From assembly GCA_964016885.1 (NCBI GenBank), contig CAXHJY010000482.1:1-64000 (forward strand): DNA of 64,000 bases, written 5' to 3'. The stretch comes from Eledone cirrhosa. Lineage: Eukaryota. A program made the position numbers and the translations under genes. The notes under the pieces are model-generated. The model saw only the letters and a list, made by a program, of their open reading frames with translations, had not been told where the DNA came from and did not search any database. Shown one piece after another: positions 45,179 to 48,100 of this stretch (position 1 is its first letter; each line of letters starts with the position of its first letter).

Positions 45179-48100
45179 GGATTTCGTTTTTCGTTAACTC
45201 GTGCGCCGATTTTTCGATACTCGATCTTTCTAATATATTTAGCTCTGGACATAGCTATCCACCAGTTAATTTTATTGCTCATATTTTGTCGATTCTATTG
45301 AGTGATGAATAGCTTTTGTTTTATTTTAACATGTCTATTGAGCACTCTAATTCGATATGTGTATTTCCACATTCACTCGAATTATTTTCGCGGATATAGG
45401 GGTCATCTCCCTTGTCTAATGCCATGTGCGTTTTTCACCGCTAGTTGACTCCTTTGCCGCCAGGATAAAACTCGTTGACGACGTAAACTCCATTCCACTT
45501 ATTCTAGTAGGCTTTTATATTTATATGTGAGCTGATAGAGTACTGTCTAAGGATTTACAGAAACCCATGAAGCTAGATTTAACACCTTTCTAGTGGGTCC
45601 GGGTATGATTTTACATTCATTTAAATTATTGACGTATTGTTTTATTGATATTTTTTATCTGTTTGGCCCGAATCTTCCTTTATCGATTTTAAATCGTATG
45701 GTTGATTGTAGACTTGTTCTATATGTGACGGTATTTTAACGATAGTTATAGCTCTGATTCATCTGAATTATTGAGCCCTCTGCCGCTCATATCGGATTTC
45801 GTTTTTCGTTAACTCGTGCGCCGATTTTTCGATACTCGATCTTTCTAATATATTTAGCTCTGGACATAGCTATCCACCAGTTAATTTTATTGCTCATATT
45901 TTGTCGATTCTATTGAGTGATGAATAGCTTTTGTTTTATTTTAACATGTCTATTGAGCACTCTAATTCGATATGTGTATTTCCACATTCACTCGAATTAT
46001 TTTCGCGGATATAGGGGTCATCTCCCTTGTCTAATGCCATGTGCGTTTTTCACCGCTAGTTGACTCCTTTGCCGCCAGGATAAAACTCGTTGACGACGTA
46101 AACTCCATTCCACTTATTCTAGTAGGCTTTTATATTTATATGTGAGCTGATAGAGTACTGTCTAAGGATTTACAGAAACCCATGAAGCTAGATTTAACAC
46201 CTTTCTAGTGGGTCCGGGTATGATTTTACATTCATTTAAATTATTGACGTATTGTTTTATTGATATTTTTTATCTGTTTGGCCCGAATCTTCCTTTATCG
46301 ATTTTAAATCGTATGGTTGATTGTAGACTTGTTCTATATGTGACGGTATTTTAACGATAGTTATAGCTCTGATTCATCTGAATTATTGAGCCCTCTGCCG
46401 CTCATATCGGATTTCGTTTTTCGTTAACTCGTGCGCCGATTTTTCGATACTCGATCTTTCTAATATATTTAGCTCTGGACATAGCTATCCACCAGTTAAT
46501 TTTATTGCTCATATTTTGTCGATTCTATTGAGTGATGAATAGCTTTTGTTTTATTTTAACATGTCTATTGAGCACTCTAATTCGATATGTGTATTTCCAC
46601 ATTCACTCGAATTATTTTCGCGGATATAGGGGTCATCTCCCTTGTCTAATGCCATGTGCGTTTTTCACCGCTAGTTGACTCCTTTGCCGCCAGGATAAAA
46701 CTCGTTGACGACGTAAACTCCATTCCACTTATTCTAGTAGGCTTTTATATTTATATGTGAGCTGATAGAGTACTGTCTAAGGATTTACAGAAACCCATGA
46801 AGCTAGATTTAACACCTTTCTAGTGGGTCCGGGTATGATTTTACATTCATTTAAATTATTGACGTATTGTTTTATTGATATTTTTTATCTGTTTGGCCCG
46901 AATCTTCCTTTATCGATTTTAAATCGTATGGTTGATTGTAGACTTGTTCTATATGTGACGGTATTTTAACGATAGTTATAGCTCTGATTCATCTGAATTA
47001 TTGAGCCCTCTGCCGCTCATATCGGATTTCGTTTTTCGTTAACTCGTGCGCCGATTTTTCGATACTCGATCTTTCTAATATATTTAGCTCTGGACATAGC
47101 TATCCACCAGTTAATTTTATTGCTCATATTTTGTCGATTCTATTGAGTGATGAATAGCTTTTGTTTTATTTTAACATGTCTATTGAGCACTCTAATTCGA
47201 TATGTGTATTTCCACATTCACTCGAATTATTTTCGCGGATATAGGGGTCATCTCCCTTGTCTAATGCCATGTGCGTTTTTCACCGCTAGTTGACTCCTTT
47301 GCCGCCAGGATAAAACTCGTTGACGACGTAAACTCCATTCCACTTATTCTAGTAGGCTTTTATATTTATATGTGAGCTGATAGAGTACTGTCTAAGGATT
47401 TACAGAAACCCATGAAGCTAGATTTAACACCTTTCTAGTGGGTCCGGGTATGATTTTACATTCATTTAAATTATTGACGTATTGTTTTATTGATATTTTT
47501 TATCTGTTTGGCCCGAATCTTCCTTTATCGATTTTAAATCGTATGGTTGATTGTAGACTTGTTCTATATGTGACGGTATTTTAACGATAGTTATAGCTCT
47601 GATTCATCTGAATTATTGAGCCCTCTGCCGCTCATATCGGATTTCGTTTTTCGTTAACTCGTGCGCCGATTTTTCGATACTCGATCTTTCTAATATATTT
47701 AGCTCTGGACATAGCTATCCACCAGTTAATTTTATTGCTCATATTTTGTCGATTCTATTGAGTGATGAATAGCTTTTGTTTTATTTTAACATGTCTATTG
47801 AGCACTCTAATTCGATATGTGTATTTCCACATTCACTCGAATTATTTTCGCGGATATAGGGGTCATCTCCCTTGTCTAATGCCATGTGCGTTTTTCACCG
47901 CTAGTTGACTCCTTTGCCGCCAGGATAAAACTCGTTGACGACGTAAACTCCATTCCACTTATTCTAGTAGGCTTTTATATTTATATGTGAGCTGATAGAG
48001 TACTGTCTAAGGATTTACAGAAACCCATGAAGCTAGATTTAACACCTTTCTAGTGGGTCCGGGTATGATTTTACATTCATTTAAATTATTGACGTATTGT

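What the first reader, a model, noticed from the sequence alone, without database searches (positions are those of the whole stretch)
45525..45675. Candidate non-canonical ribozyme junction inside the satellite unit
The unit contains gagCTGATAGAgta...tacaGAAAccca(...ctaga..tctag)tgggTCcgggt...gcccgaat. GAAA-CCC...GGG-UC is the A15.1-U16.1, stem III and GUC cleavage geometry of hammerheads, and it is conserved in the homolog (12863-12930: caGAAAccc...gggTCcgggta..tacccgaat). The CUGANGA box is aberrant (CTGATAGA versus CGGATGG), and the strand after GUC pairs downstream rather than forming a type-I stem I. It could be a variant or new self-cleaving motif that monomerises the multimer, or a relic.
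Basis: inference. Interest (0 to 1): 0.7.

Follow-up and report, generated by a model that had tools for sequence, protein, structure and literature searches.

The report
Hidden hammerhead in a jumping repeat
The motif is the right half of a disguised hammerhead, an RNA predicted to cut itself, inside a 615-base non-coding repeat with thousands of relatives in this animal genome; genomic copies begin unusually often just after the predicted cut, which suggests the RNA is likely cut in cells and then copied back into DNA by a borrowed transposon enzyme.

Summary
CTGATAGA lies inside a 76-nt stem II arm. The core strand is 85 nt upstream: ACUCG-UUGACGA (45470-81). It reads UUGANAA (U3-A8, a published variant) in 90 of 104 distinct copies. 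The 149-nt region folds as a type I hammerhead, with compensatory pairs in stem II. The unit is a 580-625-nt non-coding element with one fixed 3' end in (TA)n and variable 5' ends: a non-LTR retrozyme, likely moved by a Penelope-like element. Two extras: 5' ends pile up 0-19 nt after the cut (12 of 53 resolved ends in this clade vs 1 in the AT-richer next 50 nt), and a downstream helix that would block stem I covaries (CAGG with CCUG in 87 of 100 listed). A transcription start is the main rival. No RNA data. The scan has noted other U3-A8 retrozymes in this genome; none matched this sequence.

The parts
45178..50771 (+). Array of 9.1 identical 615-nt non-coding units: 5' end at unit position +193 after the cut, fixed 3' end running into (AT)n
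45470..45474 (+). Stem I 5' strand ACUCG (pairs with 45600-04)
   Evidence: MFE; helix 96.4% paired in 33 rows, one column pair with a two-sided change
45475..45481 (+). Catalytic core strand U3 U4 G5 A6 C7 G8 A9 (minority U3.G8 form; family majority U3-A8)
   Evidence: these columns were in no search pattern used to collect alignment A1
45482..45559 (+).
   Evidence: (helix 90.4% paired, 4 of 8 pairs with two-sided change)
45560..45599 (+). G12 A13 A14 A15.1, stem III (ACCC/GGGU, internal loop, second helix), C17; predicted cut after 45599
45600..45604 (+). Stem I 3' strand CGGGU, predicted 5' end of the cleaved RNA; genomic 5' ends pile up at 45600-45619 equivalents
45605..45670 (+). AT-rich linker (12-62 nt across subfamilies) and competing strand GCCCG (45666-70) that would sequester CGGGU and block stem I
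45832..45851 (+). Unit-internal copy of the fixed 3' end (…CTAATAT), inferred site where reverse transcription starts, 252 nt after the cut
   Evidence: (749 exact 3' ends followed by TA repeats)
12363..13113 (+). 1.3-unit insertion of the ~581-nt sister subfamily between TA repeats: stem I ACCUG 12774-78, core UUGAGAA 12779-85, cut after 12904, blocker 12921-26
50768..50797 (.). (AT)n target microsatellite at the fixed 3' end

Best explanation
The motif is the 3' half of a type I hammerhead with a U3-purine-8 core and a 76-nt stem II arm, predicted to cut after GUC (45599) in each 615-nt unit of a non-coding retrozyme that is likely copied into TA repeats by a Penelope-like reverse transcriptase. 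Shown: sequence, family-wide conservation, compensatory pairs, a fixed 3' end, and the 5'-end pile-up. Inferred cycle: (1) read-through transcripts of arrays are cut while being made, before the downstream GCCCG strand appears; (2) monomers with a 5' end at CGGGU are partly ligated to circles, in which CGGGU pairs with GCCCG and the ribozyme is off; (3) a TA-targeting Penelope-like enzyme starts at a fixed internal site about 250 nt downstream of the cut; (4) on a cut linear RNA it runs off at the cut and leaves a ~200-250-nt insert starting 0-19 nt after GUC, while on a circle or uncut multimer it continues and writes arrays such as this one.
For: Core: G2.1, G5, A6, A9, A14, U16.1, C17, C1.1 in 33 of 33 rows; U3 31; position 8 A27/G6; position 7 variable (33 of the 42 non-redundant rows were aligned, 9 decayed or near-duplicate rows left out). 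90 UUGANAA, 8 UUGANGA, 3 CUGANAA, 3 broken among 104 distinct copies. U3-A8 is a published natural covariation (PMC3088659 section read; PMC4209133 passages). The MFE of 45462-45610 is the three-way junction. Structure on A1: 88.9% of cells paired, 30 two-sided cells, 0 of 500 shuffles as high, slid controls 28-46% paired. 5' ends: 39 of 125 insertions picked by 3' end stop at 0..+19 (39 of 103 at risk; other 20-nt bins 0-0.13; 5 of 130 rows dropped). Window clade: 12 of 53 resolved ends at 0..+19, 1 at +20..+70 although that stretch is more AT-rich (0.76 vs 0.65), 2 at -20..-1; 17 of 70 ran off the fetched DNA. One insertion starts exactly at CGGGU (L449), another (L358). Blocker: of the first 100 listed CAGGU copies 87 have CCUG, 11 CCCG, 2 other (counted from the listing); CGGG copies have CCCG in 80 of 89. 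An intact Neptune-like element (775-aa RT + C-terminal GIY-YIG, CX4CxxC linker; 1,583 exact ends in TA) also ends at …TAATAT.
Against: No cleavage assay and no RNA reads. Rfam finds no hammerhead here. Folding z-score of the ribozyme is only -0.5; the homolog's own MFE lacks stem I. In full-length context ViennaRNA gives stem I at most 0.03 probability in all 18 monomers tested, even before the blocker is made. The blocked fold is only about 2-3 kcal/mol better than the active one and reaches probability above 0.6 in 8 of 18 circles. The base of stem II is an A.A or C.A mismatch, and this array has the U3.G8 wobble. Only 2-3 ends lie exactly at the cut; most are 4-19 nt downstream. In older subfamilies a few of the 39 ends may lie further down the AT linker. 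In the control Penelope-like element 18 of 30 5' ends pile up 64-78 nt upstream of its own hammerhead cut, about 30 nt below a TATA-like box, and only 2 lie within 25 nt after the cut, so pile-ups can mark a transcription start. That element shares no sequence with the unit, so the partner is unproven. The blocker covariation may be one or two historical events.
Confidence: 0.72

Rival explanations
1. Same element, but the RNA 5' end is a transcription start just inside the AT linker; the hammerhead is slow or used only for circle making.
For: The control Penelope-like element piles up at a start-like site, not at its ribozyme cut. Most ends are 4-19 nt after GUC. The anole PLE hammerhead was dispensable for insertion in vitro and no reads ended at its cut (PMC11167929 passages).
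Against: No TATA-like box at -30 by eye: that position is loop III. The upstream edge coincides with a conserved cut site, a ~3% window of the unit. A few ends lie at 0. The core strand is conserved across monomers that average 74% alike.
Confidence: 0.12
2. The pile-up is a reverse-transcriptase stall at the base of stem III or at the folded junction on an uncut RNA; the ribozyme need not cut.
For: Stem III's 3' base is at -2, so a stall followed by trimming to the nearest TA gives similar ends. A weaker cluster at +64..+93 lies just below the blocker helix.
Against: Stem II is longer and better predicted yet has almost no ends at its 3' base (1 of 67 and 0 of 68 at risk). A stall does not explain core conservation.
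Confidence: 0.07
3. One reading: a new or four-way self-cleaving motif that uses CTGATAGA and the downstream CGGGU/GCCCG helix as its active fold.
For: The downstream helix covaries. A 4-bp helix next to the box shows 81.8% pairing with two-sided changes.
Against: That helix has a central mismatch in 17 of 33 rows, and each of its covarying pairs has only 5 two-sided cells, probably one clade. It excludes the better-supported stem II. A complete hammerhead core strand with its own stem I exists upstream.
Confidence: 0.04
4. Long arrays grew at the DNA level (unequal exchange) from short insertions, with no RNA circle.
For: This is the model favoured in 10.64898/2026.07.22.740005 (parts 1-3 of 5 read). 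No RNA circle was seen here. One array is mixed at a site next to the core (L484).
Against: Arrays of 1 to 19+ near-identical units sit on many contigs with one exact 3' end and scattered 5' ends, and each carries its own variant in all units. This fits copying in one event. It bears on array length only, not on the ribozyme.
Confidence: 0.1

Closest known systems
Metazoan non-LTR retrozymes (PMC7229834: passages and Discussion read; 10.64898/2026.07.22.740005: parts 1-3 of 5 read)
   Same: Non-coding, low-GC tandem units with one type I hammerhead each; dispersed monomers to multimers; no LTR features; PLEs proposed as mobilisers.
   Different: Unit about 600 nt. Variant core, 76-nt stem II arm and large stem III instead of the short canonical helices. 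A covarying self-blocking helix, whereas that paper predicts most animal retrozyme circles leave the ribozyme free. Genomic 5' ends mark the cut. Expression and circles are not shown here.
Hammerheads of Penelope-like pLTRs (PMC4209133 passages)
   Same: U3-A8 core (about 1,300 hits in Schistosoma), 4-5-bp helix I, unpaired nucleotide 5' of helix II, longer helix II; large helix III in fungal and protist forms.
   Different: Helix II there is 7-8 bp, not a 76-nt rod. An invariant extra A before G12 and a U3.G8 sub-lineage occur here. No ORF is attached.
Plant LTR retrozymes and viroid circles (as described in the PMC7229834 Discussion)
   Same: Ribozyme predicted to be blocked by a complementary strand in the circle.
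   Different: Type III ribozymes with LTR/PBS/PPT or infectious RNA; here type I in an animal TA-targeted repeat, and the blocker is only 5-6 bp.
Neptune, Hydra and Naiad PLEs (PMC8557442 passages); anole Poseidon (PMC11167929 abstract and passages)
   Same: Fixed 3' end at an internal site, 5' truncation, partial tandems, (TA)n targets; internal initiation of reverse transcription.
   Different: No ORF, no sequence match to the active Neptune-like element found here; inverted arms are rare (both strands hit in 6 of 147 loci).

Membership tests
Hammerhead ribozyme, type I | Three helices round the core, stem I open | tested here: met
   MFE; helices 96.4, 90.4 and 96.9% paired in 33 rows
Hammerhead ribozyme, type I | Core G5 A6 A9 G12 A13 A14, A15.1-U16.1, H17 | tested here: met
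   32-33 of 33 rows each, (the 3' columns partly fixed by the collecting pattern, the 5' columns not)
Hammerhead ribozyme, type I | Watson-Crick pair between positions 3 and 8 | tested here: inconclusive
   U3-A8 in 90 of 104 distinct copies and 923 units of this family; this array is U3.G8, 187 units
Hammerhead ribozyme, type I | Paired 10.1-11.1 at the base of stem II | tested here: not met
   A or C opposite an invariant A; the helix starts one step out. PMC3088659 reports U.U and weak stems there, so this is a deviation, not an exclusion
Hammerhead ribozyme, type I | [quoted passage not shown] | not tested
   An internal loop 8 bp up stem II is a candidate by eye only
Hammerhead ribozyme, type I | Site-specific self-cleavage | not testable with these tools
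   Indirect only: 5'-end pile-up
Non-LTR retrozyme | Non-coding tandem units, each with a type I hammerhead, dispersed genome-wide | tested here: met
   absence of coding judged from the sequence and indel-rich alignments, no ORF scan run
Non-LTR retrozyme | Expressed as linear and circular monomer RNA | not testable with these tools
   No RNA holder listed
Non-LTR retrozyme | Mobilised by a PLE | tested here: inconclusive
   Shared TA target and …TAATAT end with an intact Neptune-like element; no homology
Autonomous Penelope-like element | RT plus GIY-YIG ORF | tested here: not met
   The unit is 615 nt; no PLE RT or GIY-YIG motif in the window by motif scan
Rfam ribozyme families (hammerhead, hairpin, HDV-like, twister, pistol, hatchet) | Match to the family covariance model | tested here: not met
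   No ribozyme hit at E<=10 in three stretches; for hammerheads the long stem II is the likely reason (inference)

The most novel reading that the evidence does not exclude
An animal retrozyme with a built-in timer: the ribozyme cuts only in the window before a downstream blocker strand is transcribed, linker length (12-62 nt) tunes that window, and the blocker keeps circles intact. The genome records both templates of the borrowed enzyme: cut linear RNA as short inserts starting at the cut, and circles as long arrays. Hammerheads of this build escape Rfam models and short-spacer descriptors, so other 'ribozyme-less' Penelope-type elements may hide them.
Probability: 0.35. Interest if true: 0.72.

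Novelty: new variant of a known kind. Interest (0 to 1): 0.52.

Why it matters
Whether retroelement hammerheads cut in vivo, and whether cut RNA is what gets reverse-transcribed, is open: the one PLE tested in vitro did not need cleavage (PMC11167929). How animal retrozyme circles avoid re-cutting was left unexplained in PMC7229834. This family gives a genomic footprint for the first question and a covarying candidate switch for the second, with natural A8/G8 and linker-length variants as ready controls. It also shows a hammerhead build that standard searches miss.

Tried and rejected
Rfam: no ribozyme or tRNA hit. Hairpin, HDV-like, twister and pistol folds were compared by eye from recalled consensus and dropped: required strands are absent or not conserved (e.g. 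CGAAU varies); not a formal test. The pattern in metagenome and viral contigs gave 119 and 6 stretches; 0 of these 125 matched the family profile. Sequencing runs: no RNA holder listed; contigs of X2, X3 and X5 hold near-identical units with A at 45480, X1 gave mostly AT-rich short matches; no conclusion on expression. A tRNA-like look of the last ~110 nt: ARAGORN 0 genes in 9 of 9 loci. Idea that the G8 core makes longer arrays: listed arrays are 1-19 units for A8 and 1-21+ for G8, no clear difference. RNA-editing signature (lead from earlier notes): 4 A>G among 19 array-shared changes, no excess. Idea that the short inverted-repeat element flanking the array is the autonomous partner: it interrupts or abuts PLE pieces in one locus and looks like a separate TA-inserting repeat. 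Not-in-print searches: 'hammerhead ribozyme'+'octopus', 'retrozyme'+'octopus', 'Penelope'+'hammerhead'+'octopus', and one search listed nothing describing this family; listings only, and the supplement of PMC8557442 (its HHR_core and half-core lists) was not opened and may bear on it. PMC1986816 (3-8 pair exchanges) was not held; it is cited only through PMC3088659.

Full report
Observation. The quoted strings are present. The junction recurs in 9 identical 615-nt units (45178-50771) and once in a sister element at 12363-13113. The pattern AGAAACCC-N18-40-GGGTCCGGGT has 5,250 matches in the 3.0-Gb host genome against 3 for the reversed control. The host is an animal; an octopus is my recall from a SINE in the window and the wording of an earlier scan note, not tested.

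The element. Searching with the unit gave arrays on many contigs at about 100% identity, all with one 3' end and scattered 5' starts (only 19 of 374 candidates were scored). The sister subfamily behaves the same way. A degenerate 3'-end-plus-TA pattern gave 4,641 matches on one strand (the other strand's count is inflated by overlapping TA matches; controls 7 and 25), so thousands of insertions. This clade alone has 749 exact ends. Full monomers are 579-624 nt and average 74% alike. A fixed 3' end in (TA)n with 5' truncation and partial tandems is the pattern described for Penelope-like elements (PMC8557442 passages).

The ribozyme. RNAalifold on 19 diverse monomers paired the strand before GAAA with a strand 70 nt upstream, with compensatory changes (GUAAA/UUUAC, GUGGC/GCCGC, GCGGU/ACCGC). 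Just 5' of that strand lie ACUCG and UUGACGA: stem I and the core. The MFE of 45462-45610 is a three-way junction, though its z-score is only -0.5 and the homolog's MFE lacks stem I. Of 104 distinct copies, 90 read UUGANAA, 8 UUGANGA, 3 CUGANAA, 3 are broken, none is the canonical CUGANGA. In alignment A1 (33 of 42 non-redundant rows) G5, A6, A9 and G2.1 are invariant and position 7 is free; these columns were in no collecting pattern. The named structure has 88.9% of cells paired and 30 two-sided cells, with 0 of 500 shuffles as high on those measures (55 of 500 on the count of covarying pairs) and slid controls at 28-46%; relatedness inflates such counts. U3-A8 is a natural, active covariation (PMC3088659) and is common in PLE hammerheads, which also have an unpaired base 5' of helix II (PMC4209133). 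Deviations here: a 76-nt stem II arm, an A.A or C.A mismatch at its base, and U3.G8 in this array. The family has 923 A8 and 187 G8 units, and that base is the only difference between this array and an A8 unit.

Footprint of the cut. I sampled insertions by their 3' end, independent of the ribozyme, and mapped 5' ends. Of 125 (5 of 130 rows dropped as unanchored or cut off) 39 end at 0..+19 after GUC: 39 of 103 at risk, against 3 of 75 in the 20 nt before and 0-0.13 in other bins. AT and TA content of that bin is not exceptional. Both samples agree (12 of 36, 27 of 89), but a few older ends may lie further into the AT linker. In this clade, where alignment is more exact, 12 of 53 resolved ends lie at 0..+19 and 1 at +20..+70 (binomial p about 3e-6; 17 of 70 unresolved). 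Among about 20 long young arrays only two or three start in that bin, so those templates were mostly read through the site many times. Several ends carry a short duplication of the first bases (L354, L355, L487), as expected if the enzyme runs off a template end (inference). Control: in an intact Neptune-like element 18 of 30 ends pile up at -64..-78 from its own minimal hammerhead cut, below a TATA-like box, and 2 lie within 25 nt after the cut. This suggests pile-ups mark RNA 5' ends, and keeps a transcription start alive as a rival here.

The blocker. CGGGU can also pair with (A/G)CCCG 12-62 nt downstream. Where the strand is CAGGU, the downstream strand is CCUG in 87 of the first 100 listed (389 in all); where it is CGGG, CCCG in 80 of 89. 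The upstream stem I strand in that subfamily is mostly ACCUG. So both partners fit the change. Energy favours the blocked fold by 2-3 kcal/mol; it dominates in 8 of 18 predicted circles, and stem I is improbable in all full-length folds, so the timing model is inference. PMC7229834 (Discussion) notes self-pairing blocks in plant and viroid circles but not in most animal retrozymes.

Partner. An RT fragment beside one copy led to a 4.2-kb tandem element with a 775-aa RT plus C-terminal GIY-YIG and a CX4CxxC linker, many intact copies and 1,583 exact ends in TA. It ends in …TAATAT like this unit but shares no sequence with it. Internal initiation by a PLE enzyme is shown in PMC11167929 (abstract and passages).

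Verdict. It works like, and by every sequence test but one fits, a type I hammerhead in a non-LTR retrozyme. It is a new variant of a known kind, not a new ribozyme class. The scan has already noted U3-A8 retrozymes of 316-595 nt in this genome, none similar in sequence to this one. What is added here is the hidden architecture, the 5'-end footprint at the cut and the covarying blocker. Cleavage, circles and the partner remain untested.

Noticed in passing
L389 (G000:C4:322581000-322590900), L390: Very active Neptune-like Penelope element: 4.2-kb tandem, 476-aa upstream frame overlapping a 775-aa RT/GIY-YIG frame, minimal hammerhead 126 nt before its 3' end; 18 of 30 sampled insertions start at a TATA-linked site, mostly fused to an inverted copy.
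   Followed up: partly
window 45134-45177; 22124-23030; flanks of L063, L082, L088: A TA-inserting inverted-repeat element whose end abuts the array's 5' end and several other copies; possibly a shared target or a template switch.
   Followed up: no
window 32171 (-), 32304 (+), 43997 (-), 51587 (-), 33688 (+), 30698 (+), 30450 (-), 11986 (-): Further CUGAUGA…GAAA motifs of other repeat families, some in inverted pairs; probably minimal hammerheads of other Penelope-type elements.
   Followed up: no
L484 (G000:C1:119993000-120002900): Array of more than 25 units in which 5 of 9 fetched units carry an extra change in stem II near the 5' end of the array, while a private change is in all units; a mixed template or a change during copying.
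   Followed up: partly
window 45748-45851: The last ~110 nt before the fixed end look tRNA-like by eye (TAGCTC…GAGC, TTCGA.TC); ARAGORN and Rfam do not support it. It may be the enzyme's recognition structure.
   Followed up: partly
L376:1607-4690 (-): Intact 1,028-aa endonuclease plus RT frame of a LINE next to a copy of the element.
   Followed up: no
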